Assembly (NCBI RefSeq): GCF_900199515.1
Contig: NZ_LT963434.1
Span: forward strand, 1,682,180 to 1,714,179
Source of the DNA: Massilicoli timonensis
GTDB taxonomy: Bacteria; Bacillota_I; Bacilli_A; Erysipelotrichales; Erysipelotrichaceae
Length of the DNA stretch: 32,000 nucleotides
Direction: 5' to 3'
A model generated the notes under the pieces. That model saw only the letters and a program-made list of their open reading frames with translations, had not been told where the DNA came from and searched no databases. Position numbers and translations under genes: made by a program. This document shows, one piece after another, positions 7,491 through 29,687 of the stretch (positions are counted from its first letter, which is position 1; each line of letters opens with the position of its first letter).

Positions 7491-7567
7491 CAACATCACC
7501 TCCCATTCTGTAATAGATTTTACCTCACACCTCTCCTTTATTCGCAAAATACAAGAGGGCGTTTCGG

Positions 7568-7596
7568 TTGACTTGCTAAAATAAATCTATTAAAAT
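7568..7596 (+). promoter_or_regulatory. Sigma-70-type promoter for the SLOG gene (TTGACT-17 nt-TAAAAT).
   Basis: -35 is at 7568-7573 and -10 at 7591-7596 with a 17-nt spacer. It lies ~40 nt upstream of the GGAGGA RBS and the ATG at 7638. Confidence 0.55.
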
Positions 7597-7637
7597 GAGT
7601 GGGATAAAAGTTTCAATCTATCGGAGGAAGAAAAGAG

Positions 7638-8129: not shown

Positions 8130-8156
8130 AATTAAATCATGGTAACTTTTATTGAC

Positions 8157-8183
8157 GCTCACTTGATAGTGGGCGTTTTCTTA
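8157..8183 (+). terminator. Rho-independent terminator after the SLOG gene.
   Basis: cgctcact-tgat-agtgggcg (8 bp, one G-T pair) followed by ttttctt. Confidence 0.6.
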
Positions 8184-8205
8184 TGCCGAAAAGGAGGGAT
8201 TTTTT

Positions 8206-8340
8206 ATGTGGAACCTGATAACACACTTTCTGACTTTTGCAGGGGGAATGTCTGCCGGCGTTGTACTGATGTGTCTTTTGCAGGCCGGAAAGCAGGCTGA
8301 CGAACAGATGGAGGAACTGGATAGGAGGAACATGGAATGA
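8206..8340 (+). CDS. Small hydrophobic protein (44 aa, one predicted TM). It is not in the ORF track.
   Basis: AAGGAGGG (8191-8198) lies 7 nt before the ATG at 8206. Sequence: MWNLITHFLTFAGGMSAGVVLMCLLQAGKQADEQMEELDRRNME. Its TGA overlaps the next ATG (ATGA at 8337-8340). Confidence 0.6.
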   Translation: MWNLITHFLTFAGGMSAGVVLMCLLQAGKQADEQMEELDRRNME

Positions 8341-9362: not shown

Positions 9363-9363
9363 A

Positions 9364-9392
9364 GGGCAGCTATCCGGCTGCCCTTTTGTTTT
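9364..9392 (+). terminator. Rho-independent terminator.
   Basis: gggcagc-tatccg-gctgccc followed by ttttgtttt. Confidence 0.8.
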
Positions 9393-9413
9393 CAAGAAAT
9401 GGAGGTTACGAGA

Positions 9414-11522
9414 ATGAAGTTGGTAATTGCGGAAAAGCCCTCTGTCGCTATGTCGCTGGCGGCGGTGTTGGGTGCGAATGAGAAAAAGGACGGCTACATG
9501 GAAGGCGGCGGGTATCTGGTAAGCTGGTGTGTCGGCCATCTTCTGGAGCTGGCACAGCCAGAAGCCTACGGAGAACAATATGCCAAATGGCGCTATGGAG
9601 ATTTGCCGATTCTGCCGGAGGAATGGAAGTATGAAGTACCGAAGGATAAGAAAAAGCAGCTTGGCCTTCTCTGCCGGCTGATGAAGGACAAACGGGTGGA
9701 TTCGGTTGTATGCGCCACTGACGCCGGACGCGAGGGTGAGCTGATCTTCCGGCTGGTGTATGAGTATGCCGGGTGCGGCAAACCGATGGAACGCCTTTGG
9801 ATTTCCAGTATGGAGGATGCGGCAATCCGGGACGGTTTTGAGCATTTGCGTCCCGGCCATGAGTATGACCGGCTGTATGATGCCGCTGTGTGCCGGGCCG
9901 GGGCTGACTGGCTGATCGGCATTAACGCCACTCGCCTTTTTTCTGTCCTGTATGGCGTCACGCTCAATGTTGGGCGCGTCATGTCCCCTACGCTGGCCCT
10001 TCTGGTACAGCGGGAGGCGGAGATTCAGGCATTTACGAGCAAGCCCTTTTATATACCGGAAATTACCTGCGGCGGATTTACAGCTTCTGGCGAAAAGCTG
10101 TCCGGGAAAAATGAAGCTGAAGAAATCCGTATAGCATGTGACGGGAAGGACGCTGCGGTGCTGTCCGTGGAAAAACAGGTCAAAACAGTCCAGCCTCCCC
10201 GCCTCTACGATCTGACGACCTTACAGCGGGAATGTAACCGCATTTATGGATATACGGCCCAGCAGACCCTTGACTATATACAGTTTCTTTATGAGAAAAA
10301 GCTGGCGACCTATCCCCGGACGGACAGCCAGTATTTGACTGAGGATATGCAGGCCACCGCTGCTTCCCTGATCCTCTGGCTGCGGGAACATATGCCTTTT
10401 GGAAAAGGCTGTGCCGGAGAACCGGATATTGACCGCGTGACCGATGGCAGCAAAGTTACCGACCATCACGCTATCATTCCTACGGTGGAGATTGCCCGGA
10501 CAGATCTGTCGGAGCTTCCTTCCGGGGAGCGGAATGTACTGACGCTGATTGCTGCAAGGCTTCTTTGCGCAACAGCCAAGGCCAACCAGTTTGAAACGGT
10601 AACGGCTGTGTTGGACTGTGAAGGCTATTTCTTTACGGCAAAGGGAAAGACCATATTGCAGGCCGGATGGAAGGAGGTGGAACGCCTTTACCGCATGGGC
10701 TTGAAACAGGATAAGGCAGAAGAAAAAGAGGACGAGGACGCTGCTCTGCCTCCGCTGCAGGAGGGCCAGACCTTTGAAAAGGTATCTGCGGGCGTCCGGG
10801 AAGGCAAAACTTCCCCGCCGAAGCATTATACCGAAGATTCCCTACTGGCAGCTATGGAAACGGCAGGCGCCGGGGATATGCCGGAGGATGCCGAGCGTAA
10901 GGGCTTAGGTACGCCGGCCACCCGTGCGGCCACGCTGGAAAAACTGGTTTCTGCCGGTTTCGTGCAGAGGAAGAAAAAACAGCTTATTCCCACGGAAAAA
11001 GGTACGAATCTGATTCTGGTCCTGCCAGACAATATCAAATCGCCTATGCTTACTGCGGAATGGGAGTCCATGCTGAAACAGGTGGAGCGCGGCGAAGTTT
11101 CTGCGGAGGCTTTTATGGAGGGGATTGCGGATATGAGCCGTGCGCTTGTAAAAAAACATACTGCGCCGGAGGAACGGTTTGCCGGATTGTTCCCGGATGC
11201 GAAAGGAAATGGACGTGAGGCTGTCGGGACCTGCCCTCGCTGCGGAGGAACCGTGTATGAGGGCAAAAAGGGATTTTTCTGCGATAACCGGGATTGTTCT
11301 TTTGCGCTCTGGAAGGATAACAGGTTTTTTTCCAGTAAGAAAAAGACCATTACAAAATCTGTGGCGGCTGCACTTCTGAAAGAAGGCCGCGTTTCCATAT
11401 CCGGGCTTTACAGTGAAAAGACCGGAAGAAACTATGATGCGGAGGTAATTCTGGACGATACCGGCGGTAAATATGTCAATTTCAAGCTGGAATTTCCGGC
11501 GAGAAAAGGCGGCAAAAAGTGA
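9414..11522 (+). CDS. topB: DNA topoisomerase III (type IA) with C-terminal zinc ribbons.
   Basis: MKLVIAEKPSVA (Toprim), CATDAGREGELIF, the active-site region ATYPRTDSQYL, and C-terminal CPRCGG...FFCDNRDC. GGAGG lies 8 nt before the ATG at 9414. Confidence 0.9.
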   Translation: MKLVIAEKPSVAMSLAAVLGANEKKDGYMEGGGYLVSWCVGHLLELAQPEAYGEQYAKWRYGDLPILPEEWKYEVPKDKKKQLGLLCRLMKDKRVDSVVCATDAGREGELIFRLVYEYAGCGKPMERLWISSMEDAAIRDGFEHLRPGHEYDRLYDAAVCRAGADWLIGINATRLFSVLYGVTLNVGRVMSPTLALLVQREAEIQAFTSKPFYIPEITCGGFTASGEKLSGKNEAEEIRIACDGKDAAVLSVEKQVKTVQPPRLYDLTTLQRECNRIYGYTAQQTLDYIQFLYEKKLATYPRTDSQYLTEDMQATAASLILWLREHMPFGKGCAGEPDIDRVTDGSKVTDHHAIIPTVEIARTDLSELPSGERNVLTLIAARLLCATAKANQFETVTAVLDCEGYFFTAKGKTILQAGWKEVERLYRMGLKQDKAEEKEDEDAALPPLQEGQTFEKVSAGVREGKTSPPKHYTEDSLLAAMETAGAGDMPEDAERKGLGTPATRAATLEKLVSAGFVQRKKKQLIPTEKGTNLILVLPDNIKSPMLTAEWESMLKQVERGEVSAEAFMEGIADMSRALVKKHTAPEERFAGLFPDAKGNGREAVGTCPRCGGTVYEGKKGFFCDNRDCSFALWKDNRFFSSKKKTITKSVAAALLKEGRVSISGLYSEKTGRNYDAEVILDDTGGKYVNFKLEFPARKGGKK

Positions 11523-11911
11523 GCGGGCCGCCCTGCCGTGAACTAACACGGTCTGAACGCGCGGCAATCCGAAGGCTGGTAACATATTTCTGTGCCAACT
11601 ATGATGACCGGGATAAGCTCTGCCTACCCTTAGACTGTTCCTGCTATATGCTGAATAAATGGTGGACCGGCTCACTGTGCCGGTACTTCCGTAAGGCGGT
11701 GCTTCCAACCGATCCGTCTTTAGAATCTGCCATTACGGGCGAGGACACATCTATGAAACAGAAAATATGCCCGGTCTGCGGGAAGGCTTATCTTCCGACA
11801 ACCAGCCAGGCATATTGTTCCGATGCCTGCCGCACTTTTGCGAGACGGAAATCCGAGCGGGAACGCAAGCGCAGAAAGCGGCAGAATCAGGGTAATGTGT
11901 CCGCAACTTAA
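11519..11911 (+). CDS. Cysteine-rich VLP-domain protein.
   Basis: Contains CANYDD...CLPLDCSCYMLNKWWTGSLCRYFRKAVLP and ICPVCGKAY...CSDACR. The GTG start overlaps the topB stop. Confidence 0.7.
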   Translation: MSGPPCRELTRSERAAIRRLVTYFCANYDDRDKLCLPLDCSCYMLNKWWTGSLCRYFRKAVLPTDPSLESAITGEDTSMKQKICPVCGKAYLPTTSQAYCSDACRTFARRKSERERKRRKRQNQGNVSAT

Positions 11912-12011
11912 TGAAAAAAGGGCTTGATTTGTAAGGCTTTCGAGAGCCGGTTTGACAGGCGCCTATATTAGAATACTCATGGTCTCTGAAATGGGGCTAA
12001 GCTGCGGACAA

Positions 12012-12039
12012 AGGCGCTTTGGGAGGCGCTTATTTTTTT
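12012..12039 (+). terminator. Weak terminator-like hairpin with a T7 run in the 11912-12138 intergenic region.
   Basis: aggcgc-tttgggag-gcgctt (6 bp including one G-T pair) followed by a-ttttttt. Confidence 0.35.
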
Positions 12040-12138
12040 GTCTTCCCAGGGATGACGCCAGACCTTTGCAGGTCTGGCAGATCGTCCCCTTCGGGAACGG
12101 CTGCGCGGCTGTGCCGCTGTCAAACACAGTCAGGAGGG

Positions 12139-12663
12139 ATGCTTATAGAAAAAATACCGATTACAGCAGATATTATGCGGATTGATACAGGGACGCAGAC
12201 CGTTGATATGCAGCAGATTGATAACCGACGTTTTATGTTCGACCCAGATACAGGGATATTGATTTTAGGCCGGCAGTATGCGGAAACGGACCTTGTGAAT
12301 TCCAGTCATGCGGCAGAGCTGGCCGGCGCCGGGATTACAAAGAATTTTGATCATTTTATCCGCGGCTGGATTGGCACTGGCGGGGACTATCCAAAGGGAA
12401 TCATTCATTTTGCCCCTTGTGTGGACGCGAGGAACATAAAGCTGTTTGAACGGGCTTTTGACACATTGGAGATGTTTCGGGACAACGGCGCGCTGGCGGG
12501 GACGGTCATACGCGGATTCGGGAACCGCTGGGAGCAGCCTCTATCCGATATTCTCACGGATTGCCGGGAGGCGGAGCGGAAACCCTCTGTCCGGGAACAG
12601 CTAAAGAAAATGCCGGAAAGGAAAGCTGCCCGGCAGAATAAGGAAAATCAACAGGAACGATAG
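12139..12663 (+). CDS. Hypothetical protein carrying the shared KPSV...ER C-terminal tail.
   Basis: Coding-like from MLIEKIPITADIM. AGGAGGG directly abuts the ATG at 12139, so the exact start is uncertain. The upstream part of track ORF 12019 is not coding-like. Confidence 0.6.
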   Translation: MLIEKIPITADIMRIDTGTQTVDMQQIDNRRFMFDPDTGILILGRQYAETDLVNSSHAAELAGAGITKNFDHFIRGWIGTGGDYPKGIIHFAPCVDARNIKLFERAFDTLEMFRDNGALAGTVIRGFGNRWEQPLSDILTDCREAERKPSVREQLKKMPERKAARQNKENQQER

Positions 12664-12674
12664 GAGGCGATTTT

Positions 12675-13313
12675 TTGAGTATCAGCACGATTACAACAGA
12701 TGATTTGCTCTGCATGGAAAGCAAAGAAGGTCTGATTTTGATGGGCTGCGGCGGAGACTTACAGGAATGGGTGGACGGAATCAATGAGATGTTCACGGAA
12801 TCGGGGATTTTGAAAGGCGGCAGCAGGTTTGAGGATGTTTCCGCTTTCCAGTATGACGGCATGACTTGTCTGCTCTATCCTTTTGAGGGCGTGAATCTGG
12901 ATATTGGAAAACTTGCCATGTGGCGTTTGCAGACCCATGAGAATTTTGGCGGCACATGGCTGTCTGATTTTGTACCCAACCGTTTGGGCGGCTTTATCGG
13001 AGAACCTTCGCCGGAACCGGAGAAACCGGATTGCGCTCTGATCGGACAGGACGGGAATATTTTTAACCTGGTAGGAATTGCCGCCCGTACTCTCCGGGAA
13101 TATGGCCGGAAGGATCAGGCAAAGGAAATGACAGACCGGGTGTTTGCTTCCGGCAGCTATGGAGAGGCGCTTTGTATCATTGGCGAGTATGTCAATATCA
13201 CCGATTCCAAGCCAGAGACAGAGCGGAAACCCTCTGTCCGGCAGCACTTGAAGGAAACCAAATCCGTAGAACCGTCCGGTCATGTAAAACCGGGCCGGCA
13301 GCAGGAACGATAA
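12675..13313 (+). CDS. Hypothetical protein carrying the shared KPSV...ER C-terminal tail.
   Basis: The TTG start at 12675 lies 7 nt after GGAGG (12663-12667), which overlaps the previous stop codon. Confidence 0.7.
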   Translation: MSISTITTDDLLCMESKEGLILMGCGGDLQEWVDGINEMFTESGILKGGSRFEDVSAFQYDGMTCLLYPFEGVNLDIGKLAMWRLQTHENFGGTWLSDFVPNRLGGFIGEPSPEPEKPDCALIGQDGNIFNLVGIAARTLREYGRKDQAKEMTDRVFASGSYGEALCIIGEYVNITDSKPETERKPSVRQHLKETKSVEPSGHVKPGRQQER

Positions 13314-13327
13314 CAGGAGGATGCAAT

Positions 13328-14254
13328 ATGGAACAGACATACGGTGTATGGGCGGTGCGAAGCGCCGCCTCTATCTTTGGACATGCGGAAAGCTGGTGCA
13401 AGGAGGACGGCAAGCCTTTGGAATTTGACAGCCGTGAGGCTGCCGAAACCTATGCCAGAGAAATGAGCAGCAGGACAACGGCCAATGTGCATTACTATGT
13501 GAGGAACAAAGAGCCGGAACCCGGCGCGGTGAAAAAGCGTGCCGCTCAGCCGGATTTGGATGCCCGCGCTCACGCTGAAACCACGCCGCGGAATGAAGCA
13601 GCGGAAAAACAAAATGAGATTCCCGGCAGGCAGATTATAGCGGAGCCGGACCCGCTGGTGGAAATCCGGTCTGCGGTACACAGCAATTATGCGGGCATGG
13701 TCGCTATGATGGGAGCGGATAACCGAGTATATCTGGGAAAAGAGGAACGCTGCCACTATGAGGATATGCAGCCCTCCTATTATGACAATCAGGACGGTTC
13801 CTTGTGCTTTGTCTGCGACCAGCCGGATATGTATTATTTTCTTTATGGCGAGGGGTGGGTGCATACCCAGGACGAAATGCTGAACCGGGGACTTACCATG
13901 CGGCAGTATGAAGAATTTGCCAGACTTCGGGACGGAGTGCTGTCGCAGTTTACGCTAAGCAGGGAAATCCTGTTTGCGGGGCAGCCCTTCCAGCCGCCCG
14001 AAAGCTATCTGCGTAATGCGGAGCTTTACGAGGAAGGCCAGACGGGAAATTATAATATGCTGGACGGCAGGCTGAACAATGAGCCCCCTGTCCGTCCCGA
14101 CCTGACGGACGGACAGACTTATGAGGAAATAAAAGAGCTTGCCCCAGAGACTTTGCCGGGGGATAAACCGTCCCTTATGGAACGCCTGAAAGCGGACCGC
14201 CCGGAGCGCGATGCCAGGCAGATCGTACCGCCTGATTTGGAAAGGGAACGGTGA
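13328..14254 (+). CDS. Hypothetical protein carrying a variant of the shared C-terminal tail.
   Basis: AGGAGG (13315-13320) lies 7 nt before the ATG at 13328 (MEQTYGVWAV...). The track ORF start at 13172 overlaps the previous gene and is rejected. Confidence 0.7.
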   Translation: MEQTYGVWAVRSAASIFGHAESWCKEDGKPLEFDSREAAETYAREMSSRTTANVHYYVRNKEPEPGAVKKRAAQPDLDARAHAETTPRNEAAEKQNEIPGRQIIAEPDPLVEIRSAVHSNYAGMVAMMGADNRVYLGKEERCHYEDMQPSYYDNQDGSLCFVCDQPDMYYFLYGEGWVHTQDEMLNRGLTMRQYEEFARLRDGVLSQFTLSREILFAGQPFQPPESYLRNAELYEEGQTGNYNMLDGRLNNEPPVRPDLTDGQTYEEIKELAPETLPGDKPSLMERLKADRPERDARQIVPPDLERER

Positions 14255-14257
14255 TAA

Positions 14258-14953
14258 ATGGGAGTAAAATTCGAGAATATAGATATATTGGATGCTTTAG
14301 GTCAGATTATGGAGTTGCATACACAGCACTATAAAGATGACTTTGATATGGATAAAGAACTGATCCCCAAATTGGCAGAATCAGCGGACCCGGAGGACAG
14401 GCGCCTTCTCTGGATGTCAAGGCCCTGCGGCACCTATACCCTGCGGGAGCGGGAAGTCTATCTGGATGGCAGCTATGAAAATAATGTATGGAAATTTTAC
14501 CATGAGCAGACCAAAGACCCGGTTCTTGCCTTTGCCCTCTCCATAAAAGGGATTCAGGACGGCAAAGTGATGGGGAATCTTTATCCGCTGGATTATCCCG
14601 ACCATGTGGAGCGTGTAAAGCTGCTGACCTGCCCGATTGAAAAGGTAACGGTTACTTTCGAGGATGGCGCTGTTGTTACCATGCCGTATGAGACACGCAG
14701 ACGATTTATCAATGAGCTTTCGCCGGAGCATGGGAATCCCAAATTTATGCTCTACAGCCCCGGAAGTGAGCAGGAGCTTGCCATGATTCTGAAACGGGAG
14801 CGGTTTAAGCGTTCCTACCATGCAAAGCCCGGAAATATAAAAGAGTATATTGACGGCTTGCAGAAAGGCACTGTGCGCGGTCAGTTGAAGGAGCTGCAAC
14901 CGTCTGCTGTCTCTCATAAAACTACCCGCCACAAGAACGGGCCGGAACGATGA
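14258..14953 (+). CDS. Hypothetical protein carrying a variant of the shared C-terminal tail.
   Basis: The ATG is 3 nt after the previous stop. The stop overlaps the mobC start (ATGA at 14950-14953). Confidence 0.7.
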   Translation: MGVKFENIDILDALGQIMELHTQHYKDDFDMDKELIPKLAESADPEDRRLLWMSRPCGTYTLREREVYLDGSYENNVWKFYHEQTKDPVLAFALSIKGIQDGKVMGNLYPLDYPDHVERVKLLTCPIEKVTVTFEDGAVVTMPYETRRRFINELSPEHGNPKFMLYSPGSEQELAMILKRERFKRSYHAKPGNIKEYIDGLQKGTVRGQLKELQPSAVSHKTTRHKNGPER

Positions 14954-15294
14954 CAGGCAAGCGTGACAAGCACTCGGTACGGGTAGAATTTGTCGTTACC
15001 GAGCAGGAGGCGGTTCTCATAAAAGAGCGCATGGCGGAGCTGGGAATTACAAATCTTTCCGCATATCTGCGCAAGATGGCGGTGGACGGCTATATCATCC
15101 ATCTGGATATGAGCGATATTCAGGAAATGATACGGCTCCTTCGTATCTGCTCCAATAACTTAAACCAGTACACCCGGCGGGCCAATGAGACCGGCAGCGT
15201 CTATGCCGCCGATGTGGAGGATTTGTGCGCCAGACTGGACGGCCTGTGGGATGGTATGGAAAAGCTGCTTCGGGGATTTGCGAACATTTCATAA
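14950..15294 (+). CDS. mobC: MobC-family relaxosome accessory protein.
   Basis: Contains VRVEFVVTEQEAVLIKERMAELGITNLSAYLRKMAV...SNNLNQYTRRANETG, the typical MobC pattern. Confidence 0.85.
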   Translation: MTGKRDKHSVRVEFVVTEQEAVLIKERMAELGITNLSAYLRKMAVDGYIIHLDMSDIQEMIRLLRICSNNLNQYTRRANETGSVYAADVEDLCARLDGLWDGMEKLLRGFANIS

Positions 15295-15385
15295 ACAGAA
15301 AGAAAAACCGTTGCTTTTCCGAACCGGCCACAGTAAAATTTTGATAGAGGAACAGATCATGTTCCCACGAAAGGAGGCTTGGCTT

Positions 15386-15676
15386 ATGCGGCTGGTGTTC
15401 AAAATATTAGCGTTACCCTTTGTCCTGGTTACGGGAATCCTCTATCTGGTGTGCAAATTTCTGGTAATTACATCCGGGGCGGTGTTGGGAATCCTGTCCG
15501 GCATTGTTTTTCTGGCGTCGCTGGTTCTGTTCTTTGCTGCGGGCCTGTGGGCGGGGCTTTCTTGGCTGGTAATTGCATTTCTGATCAGCCCCTACGGTCT
15601 GCCGATGGCGGCGGCCTGGCTGACTGGAAAAATCGGCGGCATAAACTACGCGCTCAAGGATTTCATTTTTTCATAA
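15386..15676 (+). CDS. Small integral membrane protein (96 aa, about 3 TM).
   Basis: GGAGG (15373-15377) lies 8 nt before the ATG at 15386. Sequence begins MRLVFKILALPFVLVTGILYLVCKFLVITSGAVLGILSGIVFLASLVLFFAAGLW... Confidence 0.7.
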   Translation: MRLVFKILALPFVLVTGILYLVCKFLVITSGAVLGILSGIVFLASLVLFFAAGLWAGLSWLVIAFLISPYGLPMAAAWLTGKIGGINYALKDFIFS

Positions 15677-15684
15677 ACTTTTGC

Positions 15685-15716
15685 GGCGGGACATTTCGGT
15701 GTCCCGCCCTTTTCTT
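15685..15716 (+). terminator. Rho-independent terminator.
   Basis: ggcgggaca-tttcgg-tgtcccgcc (perfect 9 bp) followed by c-ttttctt. Confidence 0.85.
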
Positions 15717-15734
15717 ATATTCGGAGGTATCAGA

Positions 15735-16244
15735 TTGAAAGACAATACAGCTATCTATCCTTATTCTGCGTCTTATGCGCGTGAGCATGGGGAGTTGGAT
15801 CAGTACCGCGTTTCCTATAGAGCCAATATCGCCTGCAAGGAGGCAATCGAGCAGGCCATTGCCGCTCACTACCATGATAACCGCCTCGGCACGGAGGCAG
15901 TACATCAGGTCTTGGAACAGTTTGGTTATGACCGGATGTTTTATGTGCTTGCGGTCACAGTCCGGCAAAAAGATTGGGACGGGCGCATTTCCCGTGATAA
16001 TAAAGCCTGGGCGAAAACGATTCCGGTTTATGAAAATCCGGGCAGCTCTGTCCGTGACAGTAATATTTACTTTGTGGTGGACCGCAGCCACCCAGGGCTT
16101 ACGGATTTATTTCTCACACAGGCCAGACGGGAGTATGCACAGGCCCAGGAGAAGAAAACTTCTGTCCGTGACAGTCTGAACAGGGGCAGCAGGCAGAAGG
16201 CGTACAGCGATAAACCGAAACCGCACAGACAGCCGGAACGATGA
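15735..16244 (+). CDS. DUF3849-like protein (from memory) carrying the shared C-terminal tail.
   Basis: The TTG start at 15735 lies 7 nt after GGAGG (15723-15727). Sequence begins IYPYSASYAREHGELDQYRVSYRANIACKEAIEQAI... Confidence 0.65.
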   Translation: MKDNTAIYPYSASYAREHGELDQYRVSYRANIACKEAIEQAIAAHYHDNRLGTEAVHQVLEQFGYDRMFYVLAVTVRQKDWDGRISRDNKAWAKTIPVYENPGSSVRDSNIYFVVDRSHPGLTDLFLTQARREYAQAQEKKTSVRDSLNRGSRQKAYSDKPKPHRQPER

Positions 16245-16274
16245 CCGTTGAAATTTGATTAAGGGGGTGATGGG

Positions 16275-17684
16275 ATGGCGACCACACGGCTGATGCCACT
16301 GCATATTGGAAAAGGCCGGGATATTTCCACGGCCATTGCAGACGTCATTGATTATGTGGAAAATCCGCAGAAAACGGATTTTGGAAAATTCATTTATGGG
16401 TATGAGTGCGATACCAGGATTGCGGATGCGGAATTTCTTCTTTCCAAGCGACAGTATTTTAACCAGACCGGAAGGAGTCAGGGCGCGGACGATGTGATTG
16501 CCTACCATCTCCGGCAGGCGTTCAAACCCGGCGAGGTCACGCCGGAAGAAGCGAATCAGATTGGGCGGGAGCTTGCGTTGAAGCTCACAAAAGGCAATCA
16601 CGCATTTGTCGTCTGCACCCATATCGATAAACACCATGTTCATAACCACATCATAATCAATTCTACGACGCTGGACTGTCAGAAGAAATTCCGCAACTTC
16701 TGGGGCTCCACCTGGGCAATCCGGCGCATGAATGACAAGCTCTGTCTGGAACATGGCTTATCGATTGTAGAGGACCCGAAACCGAGCCGGACCCACTATG
16801 GCACATGGCTGGGCAGTGAAAACCAACCCTCCTTCCAGGAGCAGATACGCCGGGCAATCGACGCGGCCATGGAAGAAAAGCCGAAGGATTTTGAAGAACT
16901 TTTGAAAAAGCTGGAAGCTGTCGGTATTGAAATTAACCGGGAACGAAAGCATCTCCGTTTCCGTGTACCGGGTCAGGAGAAATATACCCGGTGCGATACG
17001 CTCAAAGGAGATTATACCGAGCAGGCCATAAAAGAACGGATTGCCGGAACCCGTACTGTAAAGCCCCGGCGTACTGCTCCCACAAAACCGGTTTCCAAAG
17101 TCGGTCTGCTGGTGGATATTGAGGCGGCAATCCGGGCCGGCAAAGGTCCGGGATATGAACGCTGGGCGAAGGTGTTTAATCTGAAACAGCTATCCCAGGC
17201 GGTAATCTATCTCAAAGAGCATGGCAATATGAGTTATGAGGATTTGCAGGAAAGAACATCTGCGGTTACTGACCGTTTTAACGCACTGTCCACACAGATT
17301 AAAGACATGGAATCACGGATGACGGCCAACGGCGAATTGCAGAAACAGATCGTGAACTATGTGAAAACACGGGCGGTCTATATCGAATACCGCAAGGCCG
17401 GTTACAGCAAAAAATTCCGTTCTGAGCACGAGGCGGAAATCCTTCTGCACCAGGCGGCTAAGAAGCATTTTGACAGCCTGGGAATTACAAAGCTGCCCTC
17501 AGTCAAGTCCTTACGGGAGGAATATGCCGGACTTCTGGAACAGAAGCGGAAAACCTATGCTGCCTATAAGCAGGCCAGAGCAGAAATGAAGGAACTTCAT
17601 AATGTCAAGGCCAATGTGGATTATCTTCTGGAATTTCCCGCCGGACAGGAACCACAGCGGGATATGCAGAAATCGCGACAATAG
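16275..17684 (+). CDS. Relaxase / mobilisation nuclease (MobA/VirD2 family).
   Basis: An N-terminal relaxase domain with THIDKHHVHNHIIIN (histidine triad) and a long helical C-terminal region. Confidence 0.9.
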   Translation: MATTRLMPLHIGKGRDISTAIADVIDYVENPQKTDFGKFIYGYECDTRIADAEFLLSKRQYFNQTGRSQGADDVIAYHLRQAFKPGEVTPEEANQIGRELALKLTKGNHAFVVCTHIDKHHVHNHIIINSTTLDCQKKFRNFWGSTWAIRRMNDKLCLEHGLSIVEDPKPSRTHYGTWLGSENQPSFQEQIRRAIDAAMEEKPKDFEELLKKLEAVGIEINRERKHLRFRVPGQEKYTRCDTLKGDYTEQAIKERIAGTRTVKPRRTAPTKPVSKVGLLVDIEAAIRAGKGPGYERWAKVFNLKQLSQAVIYLKEHGNMSYEDLQERTSAVTDRFNALSTQIKDMESRMTANGELQKQIVNYVKTRAVYIEYRKAGYSKKFRSEHEAEILLHQAAKKHFDSLGITKLPSVKSLREEYAGLLEQKRKTYAAYKQARAEMKELHNVKANVDYLLEFPAGQEPQRDMQKSRQ

Positions 17685-18053: not shown

Positions 18054-18518
18054 ATGAGGCATACAGCCAAAGAACAAATTGAAACCATCTATCGCCAGAT
18101 CAATGCGATATCCGCCCTTTACCATACCGCTATCGCTCATACGGAAGTCACCGATAACGAATTTTGGATATGGTATTCCCTAATCGTTGTGGAGGGCGAG
18201 CAATCTCAGCAGAGTATATGTTCTGCATGGTCTCTTTCAAAGCAGACCGTAAACAGAATTGTTTCCCAAATGGTTAAAAAAGGTTATGCGGTTTTGGAAG
18301 CGGTTCCCGGCACACGTAACCGAAAAGTAATCCGGCTTACAGATACAGGAAGAAAGTACGGTGAAAGTATTGTTCTTCCAATTTTTACGGCGGAACAAAG
18401 AGCTATGTCCAGGCTAAGCATGGACGAAATAACAGCCTGTACGAAAGCTTATGAAAAATATCTTAGCATTTTAAAAGAAGAAATCCCCGGAGCAGATATT
18501 GACCCGCTTAAACCTTAA
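18054..18518 (+). CDS. MarR-family transcriptional regulator.
   Basis: Winged-helix region QQSICSAWSLSKQTVNRIVSQMVKKGYAVLEAVPGTRNRKVIRLTDTGRKY. A GAAGGAGAAG RBS is present. Confidence 0.85.
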   Translation: MRHTAKEQIETIYRQINAISALYHTAIAHTEVTDNEFWIWYSLIVVEGEQSQQSICSAWSLSKQTVNRIVSQMVKKGYAVLEAVPGTRNRKVIRLTDTGRKYGESIVLPIFTAEQRAMSRLSMDEITACTKAYEKYLSILKEEIPGADIDPLKP

Positions 18519-20655
18519 AGGAAAACGATAGGAGGGCCTTATGATTAACATACTTGTAGTGGAAGATGACGAAAAATTGAACCAGATTATCTGTACCTAT
18601 CTTACGAAAAATAATTATAATGCGAAAGGCTGCTGTAACCCTGTGGAGGCGTATGACCTGCTTTTTGCAGAAAGCTATGACCTGATTATTTCCGATATTA
18701 TGATGCCGAAGATTAACGGGTTCGATTTTGCTAGCGAAATCCGTCAACAGAATCCGAATGTGCCAATTCTGTTTATTACAGCATTGGATGATCTTTCTTC
18801 TAAACAAAAAGGGTTTTATGCTGGAGTAGATGACTATATGGTAAATGCTATAGTAATCTAAATCACACATTGGCGGCATATACGACACCACCGGCAACAG
18901 GGGTTCTTCCTCTATGTACCCGGCTGCGCCGAGTACGTCGGAATAATCCTCCGTGGCGCAGCCTTTGATATATACCTGGCATTTCTGTTTGGTGCCATCA
19001 GTAGTAATATAAATTCGGTCAACAATCGAATGAACTAAAGTAAACAGAGCTTCAGGCTGTGCGTCCTTTGCAAACTCCTCAAAGGACAGCAGCCTTTTTT
19101 TCATGCCATTCAGTTCATGGACGAGATACTGATTTTCAGATTGAGTATCCTCCATTCGGCGCAGCGCAGCTTCGCACTTTGCCAGCTCGTCCGTCAATTC
19201 CTTTATATCATCCTGGATGAAGCGTTTAAGGGCGTCATCTGCCTCACGCAGATTTCGTACCTGTGCGGCAATATCCGCATTTAAGCGTTCAATAGCCTTT
19301 TTGGTTTCCTGGTACTCTTTCTCGCTTTGGTCAGTACGGATCATGCTGGCAACCCTGTTCTCCAAAAGTTGCCGGTAATAGTCGGAATGTTCTTCTTGCA
19401 GGCTGGAGAGTGAGTGGATAACAAATTCATCAAGCGTTACACCCTCAACCCCTTTGAAGGTACATTCCTTTGCCCTCACCCCAGGGCAGGCATACTTGAA
19501 GCGGGGCTTGCCATTCGTCCAGCGATTGGATTCTGGCAGTACACGCAGCCGTTTTCCGCAAATAGGGCAATACATTAAGCCGGACAACAAAGCATTGGTT
19601 TTTCTATGGGGCCGGTTATACTTTTCTGCAATCTCATCCAGCATATTTTGTGTTTCCACCCATTTCCGGGAGCTGATAAATCCCTCATGGCGACCCACAG
19701 AAACAATCCATTCACTAATGGGTTTCCTGGTAAGAAGCTGTGAGAATTTGGGATTGAAAAAGGTGGAATCCTCATCCTCAACTTTCATCTGGTCGGTCTT
19801 ATTATAAGCAGTAAGCCCATGCTGACCATCAAAGTCGGACGGTTCTCCAAACAGGTTCCCGTCATGCTCCAGAAAATAGTTGTAGGAATATTCATCTGCC
19901 ACGCAGTAGATTGGATTCCGCAGAATCAGCCGGATGGTGGATGTGGTAAACTTCGCGCCATGCTTCGTTTCATATTTCTCACTGATGATATTTGCCGTCT
20001 GCAAGAGAGAACGTGTCTCCCAGAAGGTGCTGTAGATTTCCAATACAATCTCTTTTTCTTCCTGCACAGGGACGAGAAAGCTAATGGCACTCTTATTTTT
20101 TCCACTTCCCGTTGTCACACGTTGGGAAGAAAAGCCGGTCGGTGTTTTGCCTCCCAGCCAGCGCCCATCTTTTGCCAGCTCCATCAAGTTATCCTGGATA
20201 CGTTCAGTTAGAATATCGCGTTCAAATTCTGCGATAATGGCCAGCACCTGGATGATGATTTTGGATGTGCTGATCCGCGTATTGATATTGTTGGAGCAGA
20301 CCAAAAGCGTCACATCGTGACGCTCAAAGTATTCCAGAAGCCGCATGAGGTCGGAAGTTTTACGGCTGATTCGGTCTAATTTGTAACAGGCCACAGCCTT
20401 GATTTTCCCCATCTCAATGTCCCGGAGTAGCCTTTGAAAATCTGGGCGGTCGGAATAGTAACCACTTAAGCCTTTGTCCTCATACCGGGCAAATTCGTAA
20501 TCTTCCGATAGAGAAAGCTGGTTGATAGCATAGTCGGCACTTTGCTTAAACTGAACACCAATGCTATCTCCCTTATTTGTAATGCGGGATTTTCTCGCAT
20601 ATATGGCCACCAATCTATCATCAATTCCCATCTGGATTCTTGCTTTGCGTTTCAT
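18508..20655 (-). CDS. Large serine recombinase. The ORF runs past the element junction (~18846) to a stop at 18508.
   Basis: Resolvase-type N-terminus (VAIYARKSRITNKGDSIGVQ...ISRKTSDLMRLLEYF), recombinase domain, zinc ribbon (CPICGKRL...YACPG) and coiled-coil. AAGGAGG lies 10 nt before the ATG at 20655. The last ~112 codons are antisense to the response-regulator fragment. Confidence 0.85.
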   Translation of the reverse strand: MKRKARIQMGIDDRLVAIYARKSRITNKGDSIGVQFKQSADYAINQLSLSEDYEFARYEDKGLSGYYSDRPDFQRLLRDIEMGKIKAVACYKLDRISRKTSDLMRLLEYFERHDVTLLVCSNNINTRISTSKIIIQVLAIIAEFERDILTERIQDNLMELAKDGRWLGGKTPTGFSSQRVTTGSGKNKSAISFLVPVQEEKEIVLEIYSTFWETRSLLQTANIISEKYETKHGAKFTTSTIRLILRNPIYCVADEYSYNYFLEHDGNLFGEPSDFDGQHGLTAYNKTDQMKVEDEDSTFFNPKFSQLLTRKPISEWIVSVGRHEGFISSRKWVETQNMLDEIAEKYNRPHRKTNALLSGLMYCPICGKRLRVLPESNRWTNGKPRFKYACPGVRAKECTFKGVEGVTLDEFVIHSLSSLQEEHSDYYRQLLENRVASMIRTDQSEKEYQETKKAIERLNADIAAQVRNLREADDALKRFIQDDIKELTDELAKCEAALRRMEDTQSENQYLVHELNGMKKRLLSFEEFAKDAQPEALFTLVHSIVDRIYITTDGTKQKCQVYIKGCATEDYSDVLGAAGYIEEEPLLPVVSYMPPMCDLDYYSIYHIVIYSSIKPFLFRRKIIQCCNKQNWHIRILLTDFASKIEPVNLRHHNIGNNQVIAFCKKQVIRLHRVTAAFRIIIIFRKIGTDNLVQFFVIFHYKYVNHKALLSFSFKV
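18541..18861 (+). pseudogene. OmpR-type response regulator truncated after the receiver domain (3' part displaced by element insertion).
   Basis: The receiver is intact up to GVDDYMV, then reads NAIVI-stop where family members continue KP[FI].... No DNA-binding domain follows. The recombinase-bearing element starts at ~18846. Confidence 0.75.
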
Positions 20656-20722
20656 ATTCAAATATCCTCCTTTCCAGGACGGTGAGAAAACCGCCCTTTT
20701 CTCCATTATTATAGGAACGTCC

Positions 20723-20908
20723 TCATTTTTGCTCAAAGGTGCGATTATCTTCTTTCAATGTAGAAAGCAATGCTTTTAATTCTTCTGCGCTAAAGTCCCT
20801 CAATTCACGAACGAGGAACTCGGCGCGTTTTTCAGCGAACTGGCGCAGGGATTGCTCGCTGTCTTTCCCGGTATGGAATACGATCTCCATAGGCTGCCCC
20901 CTACTCAT
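20723..20908 (-). CDS. Small helical protein (61 aa) between the MazF-like gene and the recombinase. It could be an antitoxin or a recombination directionality factor.
   Basis: Its ATG overlaps the MazF-like stop (ATGA at 20905-20908). Sequence: MSRGQPMEIVFHTGKDSEQSLRQFAEKRAEFLVRELRDFSAEELKALLSTLKEDNRTFEQK. I do not recognise a family. Confidence 0.5.
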   Translation of the reverse strand: MSRGQPMEIVFHTGKDSEQSLRQFAEKRAEFLVRELRDFSAEELKALLSTLKEDNRTFEQK

Positions 20909-21429
20909 TGGTGCCTCTTGACCACTTCATAGTCAAAACCGGGCCGCTGGCCGCAGTAAGTGCAGATGTCCTTTTCCACCCGGCCAGGGTGAACCCTGCG
21001 CAAATAATAAGAGCCTGTGCCGTAGAAGTTGTTGGCACAGGCCGGACAAAGGCACATGATTAAATTTGGGGGTGTTTCTTCGATCAATCCCACGCTGACA
21101 GCCAGGGCGCGGTTGAGCCGGCGAATATGCTGTTCCTCCAGATGTCCGATGTACGTTTCCAGCCGCCTTTTATCAATGGTGCGGAGCTGCTCCATCAGCA
21201 CCAGAGAAGGCAGCTCCAGGCCGTTCTCTGCTTTGAGAAGGTAATGGGTAGGCAGCTTGGCCTTGGCGTCCACTTTGCTGGATATGGCTGCCACAATGAC
21301 CGTGGGGCTGTGCTTGTTTCCAGTATCATTCTGAATAATCAGGACCGGGCGATAACCTTCCTGCTCGGAGCCGATTCCCCGGCCCAAATCGGCATAGTAC
21401 ATATCGCCGCGATGATATGTTCTGTTCAT
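20905..21429 (-). CDS. PemK/MazF-family endoribonuclease toxin domain fused to a C-terminal CxxC...CxxC zinc-ribbon extension.
   Basis: The N-terminal ~115 aa closely resemble MazF/EndoA (RGDMYYADLGRGIGSEQEGYRPVLIIQNDTGNKHSPTVIVAAISSK...LPTHY...LMEQLRTIDKRRL). An extra ~55 aa follow: CLCPACANNF...CTYCGQRPGFDY. A GGGAGG RBS is present. Confidence 0.8.
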   Translation of the reverse strand: MNRTYHRGDMYYADLGRGIGSEQEGYRPVLIIQNDTGNKHSPTVIVAAISSKVDAKAKLPTHYLLKAENGLELPSLVLMEQLRTIDKRRLETYIGHLEEQHIRRLNRALAVSVGLIEETPPNLIMCLCPACANNFYGTGSYYLRRVHPGRVEKDICTYCGQRPGFDYEVVKRHQ

Positions 21430-21987
21430 GCTTTATGACCTCCCTTTGAAATGCAGGCGGCTGCTGCCGCCTATGTAGAACCGGACAGCAGAACAGAATG
21501 AAGACCGGGGAGAGATAAAACAATCCTCTTGTTTTCATTGGCCCGTCCTGCTGTACGGCTCATATTTCAAAGCGTTCCTATTTGTCCTCGACACCCCGGA
21601 ACACTGCGGGAAGTCATCAAACGGCTGGCAGCTCACCAGCTCCACGGGGAATCTCACCCCTCGCGTGGTTCTCACGCAACCGCCCCCATTGCCTGCGACG
21701 GATCACGGCAGCAAACCGCTTCAACGCTCGGACGTTAGGCTGGACGGGAGTATCGCTCCGCTGCTGGTCATGGCCGTACCGGGAGCCGCCCGGTACTGGC
21801 AGCCTGCTGTTTCTCGCTCCTTGCTGGGAAGAACAAACCAAAGACCTACAATTTCTTTTTTCGGTGGTGTCTCGTTGTTTTCTCCCGGCAGATCACCGCG
21901 CAGCCGCTACCTGGGCTTTGGCTTTCGCCAAAACAGCGGGAATGTGCTTGATGAATGGGTATGCAGTTTTCAAGGTGCCGTGAGGCC

Positions 21988-22032
21988 ATAAAAAGAACCT
22001 CTCACCCTATTTGCCGTTGAGGGTGAGAGGTT
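21988..22032 (-). terminator. Rho-independent terminator of sigma copy 1.
   Basis: aacctctcaccc (21996-22007) pairs with gggtgagaggtt (22021-22032), a perfect 12 bp. On the minus strand it is followed by ctttttat. Confidence 0.85.
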
Positions 22033-22041
22033 GCACAACGA

Positions 22042-22491
22042 TTATTCCAAAATTTTTTTAAGTTTTTTGAGGGCCTTCATTTTCCGAACATGAACAGCAT
22101 TGCGGTACACGCCAAGCTCGTCTGCATATTGCCGTTCTGTCTTTTCCTCAAAGAACAGCGCTTGGATCAGCGCACGTTCTTCTGGGGTAAGCAGGGAAAG
22201 CGCGGTATGTAGCCTGTCCACTTCCAGCTTGTGAAGCACCACGCTCTCCACGCTTTCCTGCTCATCAGAGAATTGCTGGGCATTTTCATCCACCAGCCGA
22301 TCCAAAGAATCTTCGCGGCTTGGGATGATCTGCACCACTTGGCCCTCCTTTCCGAGAACGAACCGCTCGGTTTTCAAATCGTTCTCAAAATAGCGCATTT
22401 TCCGGTCGCCCTGCATATAGGCCCGGTACACTTCATCCGTAACCTCAACATATTGGCCGCGAATCCATATTCTTTTTTTATCAGCGTCCAC
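22042..22491 (-). CDS. Sigma-70-family RNA polymerase sigma factor (small, conjugative-transposon type), copy 1.
   Basis: Region-4 HTH TERQYADELGVYRNAVHVRKMKALKKL and LTPEERALIQALFFEE. The GTG start lies 9 nt after GGAGG. It is 149 aa with only a few substitutions and a divergent C-terminus relative to the copy at 29042-29494. Confidence 0.8.
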   Translation of the reverse strand: MDADKKRIWIRGQYVEVTDEVYRAYMQGDRKMRYFENDLKTERFVLGKEGQVVQIIPSREDSLDRLVDENAQQFSDEQESVESVVLHKLEVDRLHTALSLLTPEERALIQALFFEEKTERQYADELGVYRNAVHVRKMKALKKLKKILE

Positions 22492-22682
22492 GCTGTTTTA
22501 CCTCCGATCAGTCTGAATTGCGAGAAATTCAGACTGGTCGGGCGGCCCCCTACAACGTGGGAATGGGGTTCCTCTATATTGAAAAACGCACCTGCAGAAT
22601 GGGACAACAGCCCCAACAGCAAGTGCGTTTCCTTTTAGTTCGTGTAAATCATGGCATGATGGTTCAGTATGAAAGGCGTAAA
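22074..22682. repeat. Direct repeat copy 1 (~610 bp: most of the sigma gene plus ~190 nt of leader).
   Basis: It aligns by eye to 29077-29687 with roughly 25 substitutions and one 3-nt indel (about 95% identity). Confidence 0.85.
22509..22630 (-). promoter_or_regulatory. Structured leader of sigma copy 1: a terminator-like hairpin followed by an RBS-proximal hairpin.
   Basis: On the minus strand: aaacgcacttgc...gcaggtgcgttt (22630-22584, 12 bp with one G-U pair) followed by tt-c. Then cagtctgaatt-tctcgc-aattcagactg (22536-22509, perfect 11 bp), ending 3 nt before the GGAGG RBS. Confidence 0.55.
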
Positions 22683-29041: not shown

Positions 29042-29494
29042 TTAGCCCTCCAATAAGAGCTTCAACTTTTTAAGGACCTTCATTTTCCGAACATGAACAG
29101 CATTGCGGTACACGCCAAGCTCGTCTGCATATTGCCGTTCTGTCTTTTCCTCAAAGAACAGCGCCTGGATCAGCGCACGTTCCTCTGGAGTCAGCAGGGA
29201 AAGCGCGGTATGTAGCCTGTCCACTTCCAGCTTGTGAAGCACCACGCTCTCCACACTTTCCTGCTCGTCGGAGAATTGCTGGGCATTTTCATCCACCAGC
29301 CGGTCCAAAGAATCTTCGCGGCTGGGGATGATCTGCACCACTTGGCCCTCCCTTCCGAGAACGAACCGCTCGGTTTTCAAATCGTTCTCAAAATAGCGCA
29401 TTTTCCGGTCGCCCTGCATATAGGCCCGGTACACTTCATCCGTGACCTCAACATATTGGCCGCGAATCCATATTCTCTTTTTATCAGCGTCCAC
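29042..29494 (-). CDS. Sigma-70-family RNA polymerase sigma factor, copy 2.
   Basis: 150 aa. It differs from copy 1 by K47R and by the C-terminus (KMKVLKKLKLLLEG versus KMKALKKLKKILE). GTG start. Confidence 0.8.
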   Translation of the reverse strand: MDADKKRIWIRGQYVEVTDEVYRAYMQGDRKMRYFENDLKTERFVLGREGQVVQIIPSREDSLDRLVDENAQQFSDEQESVESVVLHKLEVDRLHTALSLLTPEERALIQALFFEEKTERQYADELGVYRNAVHVRKMKVLKKLKLLLEG

Positions 29495-29687
29495 GCTGTT
29501 TTACCTCCGATCAGTCTGAATTGCGAGAAATTCAGACTGGTCAGGCGGCCCCCTACAACGTGGAAATGATGGGGTTCCGCTATATAGAAAAACGCACCTG
29601 CAGAATGGGACAACAACCCAAACAGCAAGTGCGTTTCTTTTTAGTTCGTGTAAATCATGGCATGATGGTTCAGTGTGAAGGGCATAA
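29077..29687. repeat. Direct repeat copy 2 (pairs with 22074-22682).
   Basis: See copy 1. Homology ends at ~29687 on the right and ~29077 on the left. Confidence 0.85.
29512..29637 (-). promoter_or_regulatory. Structured leader of sigma copy 2, with the same two hairpins as copy 1.
   Basis: The stems are conserved at 29637-29590 and 29539-29512. The substitutions relative to copy 1 fall in loops and linkers. Confidence 0.55.

What the first reader, a model, noticed from the sequence alone, without database searches (positions are those of the whole stretch)
18508..18861. The serine recombinase ORF has no stop inside its own element and reads ~112 codons into the antisense strand of the gene it disrupted
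The + strand response-regulator ORF (18541-18861) is normal up to GVDDYMV. It then reads NAIVI-stop where OmpR-family proteins continue KP[FI]..., and no output domain follows, so it appears cut at about 18843-18848 (gtaaa|tgc). On the minus strand the large serine recombinase reads ...EEEPLLPVVSYMPPMCDLDYYSI at that same point. It continues without a stop through the whole response-regulator fragment and ends at 18508, 11 nt inside the 3' end of the MarR gene. The C-terminal ~112 aa of the recombinase as integrated here are therefore encoded by target DNA, not by the element. In the excised circle, or at another site, the C-terminus would be different, specified by the opposite element end. 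An integration-state-dependent C-terminus could bias the direction of recombination or the stability of the enzyme. I do not know of this having been described for this family.
Basis: partly seen in the sequence, partly recalled or inferred. Interest (0 to 1): 0.65.

Follow-up and report, generated by a model that had tools for sequence, protein, structure and literature searches.

The report
Recombinase gene without its own stop
A mobile element of gut Clostridia carries a serine recombinase gene that runs straight through the element's own recombination site with no stop codon, so the enzyme's tail is written by whatever DNA lies next to it: 111 junk codons here, a DNA-binding regulator when the element's two ends are joined.

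Summary
The minus-strand large serine recombinase (LSR) ORF crosses an element/target junction at 18843|18846 and reads 111 further codons antisense through a split OmpR-type response-regulator gene. It stops 11 nt inside marR.

Ten uninterrupted loci give the empty site (GGTA-AA-GCCTATAG). That sets the crossover dinucleotide at 18844-45.

The trait is family-wide. In 119 of 120 homologue clusters (70-100% identity) and about 20 genome loci the ORF runs to ...MCDLDYYSI and diverges immediately afterwards, with tails of 2-593 aa. Those last codons are the P' arm of the att site and are conserved as DNA.

The other end of the element was found in relatives, not in this window. It is TT-ACCGATAGTAATCTCAATCACA, the inverted repeat of the P' arm.

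In contigs where the two ends are joined, the LSR ORF continues in frame into an XRE-type 2xHTH gene, giving 777 aa. That gene is likewise open towards the host: 165 of 166 host-encoded heads end in an xTT codon.

Its functional idea, that the C-terminus controls recombination direction, is untested. AlphaFold gives low confidence for the tail region.

I found no description of this in the searchable literature, only incidental end-fusions reported for C. difficile CTn5. I rate it a new variant of a known kind.

The parts
18054..18518 (+). MarR-family regulator gene of the target locus. Its last 11 nt are overlapped by the end of the recombinase ORF.
   Evidence: MarR_2 domain. The identical protein sits next to an intact regulator in 10 loci.
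18541..18845 (+). 5' fragment of the split OmpR-type response-regulator gene: codons 1-101 plus the AA of Lys102.
   Evidence: Receiver domain only. The intact 223-aa orthologue is identical up to this point.
18844..18845 (.). Crossover dinucleotide: AA on the + strand, TT on the recombinase strand. It is shared by the empty site and the junction.
   Evidence: Empty-site comparison. TT is invariant at all near-end junctions. 165 of 166 far-end heads end in an xTT codon, L/I/F/V.
18846..18870 (-). P' arm of the att site. This is the element end and encodes the last element-specified residues ...MCDLDYYS(I).
   Evidence: ATGTGTGATTTAGATTACTATAGCA is conserved as DNA even where the protein just upstream has diverged. 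It is the inverted repeat of the far-end arm, 18/22.
18508..18843 (-). Target-encoded tail of the recombinase ORF: 111 codons plus the stop, antisense to the regulator fragment.
   Evidence: Translation. There is no counterpart in any homologue. AlphaFold pLDDT is below 50 throughout.
18844..20655 (-). Element-encoded large serine recombinase, 604 codons, with no stop codon inside the element.
   Evidence: Resolvase, Recombinase and Zn_ribbon_recom domains. Homologues start at MKRKAR and align to residue 604. The fold is confident to about residue 563.
20723..20908 (-). 61-aa ORF just upstream of the recombinase gene. It occupies the position that Xis holds in the tyrosine-integrase variant, so it is a candidate directionality factor (inference).
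   Evidence: Conserved neighbour in L001-L005, L011 and L022. No Pfam or PHROG hit. L010 has an HTH_17 gene at this position.
20905..21429 (-). MazF/PemK-like toxin gene of the conserved end module.
   Evidence: PemK_toxin; PHROG MazF-like.
21642..21754 (-). pemK RNA motif in the leader of the toxin gene.
   Evidence: Rfam RF02913, 38.3 bits against a gathering score of 34.8.
22042..22491 (-). Sigma-70 region-4 protein gene. It marks the inner limit of the end module shared with relatives.
   Evidence: Sigma70_r4. DNA homology with L001 runs from 18843 to 22560.

Best explanation
Window 18844 onward is the recombinase-proximal end of a large integrative element of the Tn1549/CTn5 kind. The element has inserted into a response-regulator gene, which itself lies in the cargo region of another conjugative-type element.

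The recombinase gene overlaps the element's own attachment site. Its last ~9 codons (...MCDLDYYSI) are the P' arm. The TT crossover dinucleotide forms positions 2-3 of its last codon. There is no stop codon inside the element (shown).

Wherever the element sits, the ORF therefore runs on into flanking DNA until a chance stop. Here that is 111 codons, antisense through the regulator fragment and into marR (shown).

When the two ends are joined, in a circle or a tandem, the ORF continues in frame into the XRE-type 2xHTH gene that begins at the other end, giving 777 aa. Integration splits this one ORF into 'recombinase + host tail' and 'host head + regulator' (shown in close relatives; inferred for this copy).

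My inference is that the integrated-state tail is a tolerated by-product hanging off a disordered C-terminus. The layout has no stop or terminator at the joint, and the far-end genes run in the same orientation. It probably serves, as in Tn916, to let expression run across the joint only after excision. Whether the fused and unfused C-termini change enzyme behaviour is not known.
For: - **Empty site and junction.**
- **Homologue ORFs.** In 119 of 120 clusters, and in every genome locus where the ORF end is present, the ORF reaches ...YYSI and then diverges. Tails are 2-593 aa, and many carry host Pfam domains.
- **P' arm.** It is conserved at the DNA level where the adjoining protein is not.
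- **attP-type joint.** TGTGATTTAGATTACTATAGCA-TT-ACCGATAGTAATCTCAATCACA matches 18/22. In 1000 shuffles of a 209-nt stretch from another locus (L052), none exceeded 16/22. The joint occurs in L022-L025 from four samples, with a 777-aa ORF and ParA, ParB and an adhesin downstream.
- **Both ends in one place.** L045 has both ends integrated, each flanked by TT.
- **Far-end ORF.** It is open upstream, with 146 distinct host-encoded heads. 165 of 166 end in L/I/F/V, i.e. an xTT codon.
- **Target diversity.** 19 different target half-sites were seen.
- **Structure.** AlphaFold is confident to about residue 563 and below pLDDT 50 from 576 to 715.
- **Precedent.** Transcription across the joint that depends on circularisation is established for Tn916. 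I cite this from my own knowledge; it was not checked here.
Against: - The far end of this particular copy is outside the window. The circular-form C-terminus is extrapolated from relatives with 97-100% identical recombinases.
- The joined-end contigs could be tandem copies rather than circles.
- There is no expression or protein evidence, so translation of the tail is assumed.
- The linker before the P' arm varies in sequence, yet no homologue has acquired an early stop. This hints that reading through the site may be selected rather than merely tolerated.
Confidence: 0.8

Rival explanations
1. Integration-state switch. The ORF across attP is selected. The joined form makes a recombinase-XRE fusion with different activity, stability or self-regulation from the split products, so the element senses whether it is integrated.
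For: - No early stop occurs in 119 of 120 clusters, although the linker is variable.
- The far-end ORF is kept open from the crossover to the HTH gene.
- Distant recombinases (27-34% identity) also occur as recombinase + HTH_3 single ORFs.
- Palindromes lie at the recombinase/HTH boundary in L052 (16/22, reached by 2 of 1000 shuffles) and L057 (15/22, reached by 14 of 1000).
- Many relatives end ...DSK-stop exactly at the presumed crossover.
Against: - There are no functional data.
- An in-frame arrangement has a 1-in-3 prior, and my search could only detect in-frame cases.
- Integrated-state tails are random sequences of 2-593 aa, which argues against a specific tail function.
- The XRE gene has its own plausible start (AAAGG-N7-ATG).
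- In L057 host-like genes lie just upstream of the recombinase gene, so that fusion may be a native gene rather than a joint.
- The L058 palindrome is not significant.
Confidence: 0.25
2. The joined-end contigs are not circles. They are tandem arrays, or insertions of one copy at the end of a resident copy, so no free circular form with a 777-aa ORF need exist at appreciable levels.
For: - Elements of this kind often sit inside one another, as in this window.
- The L022 contig carries the MEGAHIT flag for a stand-alone contig, not a loop. This reading of the flag is my own knowledge.
Against: - The joint is a precise P'-TT-P palindrome, identical in four or more samples.
- A tandem joint has the same sequence and the same ORF, so the coding consequence is unchanged.
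Confidence: 0.3
3. The long ORF is a local accident. Either this copy lost its stop codon by mutation, or the last ~110 aa are a native recombinase C-terminus and the junction lies further left.
For: None found.
Against: - All relatives lack a stop at the same place, and none shares the tail.
- The tail DNA is identical to the antisense of the uninterrupted regulator gene.
Confidence: 0.01

Closest known systems
Tn1549-family ICEs with serine recombinases in Clostridioides difficile (CTn5/Tn6103, Tn7740)
   Same: These are large conjugative elements that excise as circles, use a large serine recombinase, and insert in several different genes. Host-element ORF fusions at an end have been noted: rumA fused to the end ORF CD1844A after CTn5 moved (PMC4320837), and 'CTn5 promotes a fusion with CD1844' (PMC3158075). 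Tn7740 is found in fic and in another element's recombinase gene (PMC12271512).
   Different: Those papers do not say that the recombinase gene lacks a stop, that the att arm is its 3' end, or that one ORF spans the joint. I could not test sequence relatedness to CD1878 or Tn7740. No T4SS genes of this element lie in the window.
Multi-targeting large serine recombinases (Durrant et al. 2022, PMC10083194)
   Same: One recombinase cluster is found in many unrelated target genes, with a TT core dinucleotide and a degenerate target motif.
   Different: Most of that clade carries DUF4368, which is not detected here. The paper does not mention overlap of the ORF with the attachment site.
TnpX/TndX transposons Tn4451 and Tn5397 (own knowledge, plus PMC3158075)
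   Same: Both move by a large serine recombinase through a circular intermediate with a 2-bp core. In Tn4451 the circle joint changes recombinase expression by assembling a promoter.
   Different: There the joint affects the 5' promoter of tnpX and the core is GA. Here the joint affects the 3' coding end and the core is TT.
Integration-dependent immunity of mycobacteriophage BPs/Brujita (PMC4557955)
   Same: attP lies inside a coding sequence, so integrated and free forms encode proteins with different C-termini.
   Different: That system uses a tyrosine integrase. The gene affected is the repressor, not the recombinase. It has a single specific attB, and the mechanism has been shown experimentally (loss of a degradation tag).
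SSV1-type archaeal integrases (PMC8371274)
   Same: The attachment site lies within the recombinase's own ORF, and integration partitions the gene.
   Different: That is a tyrosine recombinase split into two large parts. Here only the tail after the folded domains is exchanged, and the partner is a regulator gene.
Tn916 circularisation-dependent expression (own knowledge)
   Same: The recombination module sits at one end and reads outward. The far-end genes are in the same orientation and can be reached only across the joint.
   Different: Tn916 uses a tyrosine integrase with its own stop, so coupling is transcriptional only.

Membership tests
Large serine recombinase (serine integrase) | N-terminal resolvase catalytic domain with the catalytic serine | tested here: met
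   PF00239, E=3e-31. Y19, R21, K22 and S23 are invariant in a 40-sequence alignment. PDB hits cover only this domain, e.g. the TP901-1 integrase N-terminal domain.
Large serine recombinase (serine integrase) | Recombinase domain plus a zinc-ribbon domain with an inserted coiled coil | tested here: met
   PF07508 and PF13408. The model has long helices at 405-523 between the zinc ribbon and the terminal strands 545-563.
Large serine recombinase (serine integrase) | att sites are imperfect inverted repeats around a 2-bp crossover, with no target duplication beyond those 2 bp | tested here: met
   P'-TT-P palindrome, 18/22. TT lies at both ends of L045. The empty site shares only AA/TT with the junction.
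Multi-targeting LSR (Durrant 2022 definition) | One 90%-identity recombinase cluster integrated in more than 3 unrelated target gene clusters | tested here: met
   19 distinct target half-sites. Tails of 97-100% identical recombinases carry more than 15 different host Pfam families.
Multi-targeting LSR (Durrant 2022 definition) | DUF4368 domain (common in that clade, not strictly defining) | tested here: not met
   No DUF4368 hit at E<=0.01.
Tn1549-family ICE | Own relaxase, coupling protein and type IV secretion genes between the two ends | tested here: inconclusive
   None lie in the window right of 18846. L007-L009 extend the same cargo by about 10 kb without reaching them. The far end carries ParA, ParB and an adhesin. 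L010 has the same sigma/PemK module with Xis plus a tyrosine integrase, as in Tn1549-type ends.
attP-within-ORF switches (BPs-type integration-dependent systems) | Attachment site inside a coding sequence, so integrated and free forms encode different C-termini | tested here: met
attP-within-ORF switches (BPs-type integration-dependent systems) | The two protein forms differ in stability or activity | not testable with these tools
   This needs protein half-life and recombination assays.

The most novel reading that the evidence does not exclude
The single ORF spanning attP is a selected integration-state sensor. Only the excised or joined element makes a recombinase-XRE fusion, for instance one competent for integration and/or self-repressing. 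Integration physically separates enzyme and regulator and gives the enzyme an arbitrary tail. The same layout may recur in distantly related clostridial and phage serine recombinases (27-34% identity). It would then be an old, general design rather than a quirk of one element.
Probability: 0.25. Interest if true: 0.8.

Novelty: new variant of a known kind. Interest (0 to 1): 0.6.

Why it matters
Serine integrases are prized genome-engineering tools, and their directionality is thought to depend only on a separate directionality factor. Here an abundant family from gut bacteria has a coding sequence physically coupled to the recombination site.

Three consequences follow.

1. Every annotated copy carries a spurious, context-dependent C-terminus. 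Database lengths run from 600 to 1197 aa, which misleads clustering, domain annotation and ORF-based cloning.
2. Insertions create chimeric proteins with host genes at both ends of the element.
3. The element has a built-in, testable way to make different recombinase and regulator proteins before and after integration.

The element also carries ABC-transporter and two-component cargo, and it inserts into other mobile elements. Its target rules therefore matter for tracking gene flow in the gut.

Tried and rejected
- **Far end in the window.** I searched for the regulator's 3' half and for an inverted copy of the P' arm inside the window. There was none, so the far end is beyond 32000.
- **Exact look-up.** The window's own 715-aa product is not on record.
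- **A false lead.** I first took the recurrent tail 'CAEISKKGIL...' for the circle joint. It is rejected: it is an IS200-type tnpA gene (APKYRR...) read out of frame, a favoured target.
- **Plasmid collection.** Only recombinases below 60% identity were found.
- **PDB sequence search.** Only catalytic domains matched, so it did not help with the C-terminus.
- **Replicating the divergence test.** The last homologue search, with P0338, aimed to repeat the 'divergence after the joint' test in a distant lineage. P0338 has no close relatives, so the test was not possible.
- **L058.** The palindrome at the P0259 boundary is not significant: 14/22, reached by 66 of 1000 shuffles.
- **Walking to the far end.** Long contigs could not be walked, because look-ups accept only window proteins or search hits.
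- **Literature.** Eight of the ten allowed full-text searches were run, plus five papers read. No description of a serine recombinase gene without a stop was found.
Full report
**1. The observation**

The minus-strand ORF 18508..20736 carries Resolvase, Recombinase and Zn_ribbon_recom domains. Homologues begin at MKRKAR (20655), so the product is 715 aa. On the plus strand, ORF 18541..18861 matches only a receiver domain and ends ...GVDDYMV-NAIVI-stop.

After ...CDLDYYSI the recombinase ORF continues for 111 codons. Its stop at 18508-10 lies 11 nt inside the MarR ORF, which ends at 18518.

**2. The junction**

A look-up of the identical MarR protein returned ten loci from different samples. 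In each, MarR is followed by an intact 223-aa OmpR-type regulator (receiver plus Trans_reg_C) and a histidine kinase. The sequences compare as follows:

- Empty site: ...GACTATATGGTA-AA-GCCTATAGACATGG...
- Window: ...GACTATATGGTA-AA-TGCTATAGTAATCTAAATCACACATTGG...

The regulator is therefore cut after Val101 and the AA of Lys102. The element starts at 18846, and AA (18844-45) is the shared crossover dinucleotide.

Upstream, the window carries an adhesin/sortase, AbiEii, ThyX, a topoisomerase and a relaxase. The uninterrupted loci show the same backbone. The target is thus the cargo region of another conjugative-type element.

**3. The trait belongs to the whole family**

A search of 5.8 billion proteins gave 2151 relatives. 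The 120 best are 70-100% identical over about 81% of the query, yet they are 519-1197 aa long. In 119 of them the sequence runs to ...(P)MCD(L/S)(D/E)xY(S/R)(I/L) and diverges at the next residue. Tails are 2-593 aa.

Many tails carry Pfam domains of unrelated host proteins, such as FtsX, TraG/VirD4, HTH_3, GGDEF and short-chain dehydrogenases. These are in-frame sense fusions.

Clustering inflates the share of long unique tails. The clusters with many members are 625-662 aa. In species-representative genomes the tails are 3-72 aa. The 111-aa tail here is simply a long chance read-through, and this antisense frame is stop-free across the whole regulator gene.

Hosts are Lachnospiraceae, Oscillospiraceae, Ruminococcaceae and Pseudoramibacter. 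They include a complete isolate genome, AP025576.1.

**4. The conserved C-terminal peptide is the att arm**

Across junctions, ATGTGTGATTTAGATTACTATAGCA-TT is almost invariant as DNA. This holds even for recombinases only 71-82% identical, whose preceding ~20 codons are unalignable.

Nineteen different target half-sites follow the TT. They share little beyond a C at the third base and a loose ..A.TAT.. pattern. IS200-type tnpA genes (xPKYRR) are hit repeatedly, which explains a recurrent 'CAEISKKGIL' tail that I first mistook for a circle joint.

**5. The other end and the joined form**

Translating the reverse complement of the P' arm in frame gives C-Y-S-N-L-N-H-T. Seven clusters have tails beginning (T/V)(D/Y)SNL(N/K).... 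Their contigs (L022-L025, four samples) read ...TGTGATTTAGATTACTATAGCA-TT-ACCGATAGTAATCTCAATCACA... This is an 18/22 palindrome. The best of 1000 shuffles of a 209-nt control stretch (from L052) reached 16/22.

Across this joint the ORF continues in frame into a protein with two HTH_3 domains and stops at 777 aa. A 54-aa ORF, ParA, ParB and a SpaA adhesin follow.

L045 shows that this sequence really is the opposite end of an integrated element. It is an internally deleted copy with host-TT-ACCGATAG... on one side and ...CTATAGCA-TT-host on the other.

The far-end gene is likewise open towards the host. 166 clusters have host-encoded N-terminal heads of 8-502 residues, 146 of them distinct, followed by TDSNLNHTG... 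In 165 of these the residue before Thr is L, I, F or V. That is an xTT codon, as expected if TT is the crossover at codon positions 2-3.

The regulator has a plausible start of its own (AAAGG-N7-ATG, MIHLTFDY...). The far end of the copy in this window is beyond 32000.

**6. How it most likely works**

*Shown:* the att site overlaps the 3' end of the recombinase gene and the 5' approach to the XRE gene. One ORF spans attP. Integration splits it.

*Inferred:* in the integrated state the recombinase carries an arbitrary tail on a flexible C-terminus. AlphaFold with a 40-sequence alignment is confident to about residue 563, the last strands of the zinc-ribbon domain. It is below pLDDT 50 from 576 to 715.

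The layout has the recombination module at one end reading outward, no stop or terminator, and far-end genes in the same orientation. This parallels Tn916, where transfer genes are expressed only across the circle joint (my own knowledge). I consider the tail itself a tolerated by-product.

One observation argues for more than tolerance. The linker before the P' arm is free to vary, yet it has not acquired a stop in any of 119 clusters.

**7. A wider pattern (a lead, partly supported)**

An exhaustive profile search with the 777-aa ORF found distant recombinases (27-34% identity by BLASTP) that also carry HTH_3 domains in the same ORF: P0259, P0320, P0324, P0333 and P0338. A further search added a 772-812-aa group (P0345, P0364, P0369, P0390, P0451...).

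Supporting points:

- At the recombinase/HTH boundary, L052 has a 16/22 palindrome (reached by 2 of 1000 shuffles) and L057 a 15/22 palindrome (reached by 14 of 1000). Both have a core (ATAGCx-AA-TGCxAT) resembling the one here.
- In that group, different recombinase subtypes are joined to the same HTH subtype at ...GEDS(E/K)|CYTI.
- Many relatives from named isolates end ...DSK-stop exactly there.

Counter-points:

- In L057 host-like genes lie just upstream of the recombinase gene, so that fusion may be a native gene.
- The L058 palindrome is not significant.
- My search could only see in-frame cases.

**8. Comparison with what is known**

Tn1549-family ICEs with serine recombinases (CTn5, Tn6103, Tn7740) and multi-targeting recombinases with a TT core are established (PMC3158075, PMC12271512, PMC10083194). 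For CTn5 a fusion of rumA to the end ORF CD1844A was reported as a curiosity (PMC4320837).

Attachment sites inside coding sequences are known for mycobacteriophage BPs repressors (PMC4557955) and for SSV1-type archaeal integrases (PMC8371274). Both use tyrosine recombinases.

I found no paper stating that a serine recombinase gene lacks its own stop, that its 3' end is the att arm, or that the joined form encodes a recombinase-regulator ORF. Subscription-only literature was not searchable.

**9. Verdict**

The functional idea is open.

I rate the finding a new variant of a known kind. It has a practical consequence, in that thousands of database entries have artefactual C-termini. It also offers a testable regulatory hypothesis. 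Interest 0.6.

Noticed in passing
window 21642-21754 (-): A pemK RNA motif (Rfam RF02913, 38.3 bits) lies in the leader of the MazF/PemK-like gene 20905-21429. That toxin has a Cys-rich C-terminal extension of about 60 aa and no antitoxin ORF upstream.
   Followed up: partly
window 20723-20908 (-): A conserved 61-aa ORF with no family hit overlaps the toxin stop and precedes the recombinase gene. In the tyrosine-integrase variant L010, an HTH_17 Xis gene sits at this position. The ORF is therefore a candidate directionality factor.
   Followed up: partly
window 22064-22681 and 29067-29687: Direct repeats 95.7% identical (a sigma-70 region-4 module) bracket a response-regulator/kinase/ABC-2 cargo block. 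Relative L011 lacks this block, which suggests cargo gain by recombination between the repeats.
   Followed up: partly
L001-L004, L027, L039, L047 (junctions): IS200-type tnpA genes are hit repeatedly at the conserved xPKYRR codons, by recombinases 71-99% identical to the one in the window. This is a favoured target and the source of a recurrent 'CAEISKKGIL' tail.
   Followed up: yes
L045 6306-10873: An internally deleted copy of the element (about 4.6 kb) has both ends in place. The deletion fuses an adhesin gene to recombinase residues 314-603.
   Followed up: yes
protein P0037 (tail): After the joint, a diverged P-arm-like stretch (VYSNLKEIS...) is followed 25 codons later by a second P'-arm-like 'CDLEQYSI'. 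This may be a miniature two-ended remnant sitting next to a full element.
   Followed up: no
L052:7687-7732; L057:11684-11729; proteins P0344-P0462: Distant serine recombinases occur as recombinase + HTH_3 single ORFs with a palindrome at the boundary. Many of their relatives end '...DSK-stop' exactly at the presumed crossover.
   Followed up: partly
L010 12282-15500: The same sigma/PemK end module is joined to Xis plus a tyrosine integrase instead of the 61-aa ORF plus serine recombinase. This is a swap of the recombination module on one backbone.
   Followed up: no
window 18541-18845 and L012 10488-11159: One antisense frame of the whole 223-codon response-regulator gene has no stop: 111 codons on the recombinase side and about 125 on the predicted far side. 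This explains the unusually long tail.
   Followed up: yes
window 1-17684: This stretch carries a SpaA adhesin plus sortase, DUF6088/AbiEii, ThyX, a TopB-like topoisomerase, DUF3849 and a MobA/VirD2 relaxase. It is a second conjugative-type element, so the window shows one element inserted in another. In L005 a related recombinase reads into an AbiEii gene.
   Followed up: partly
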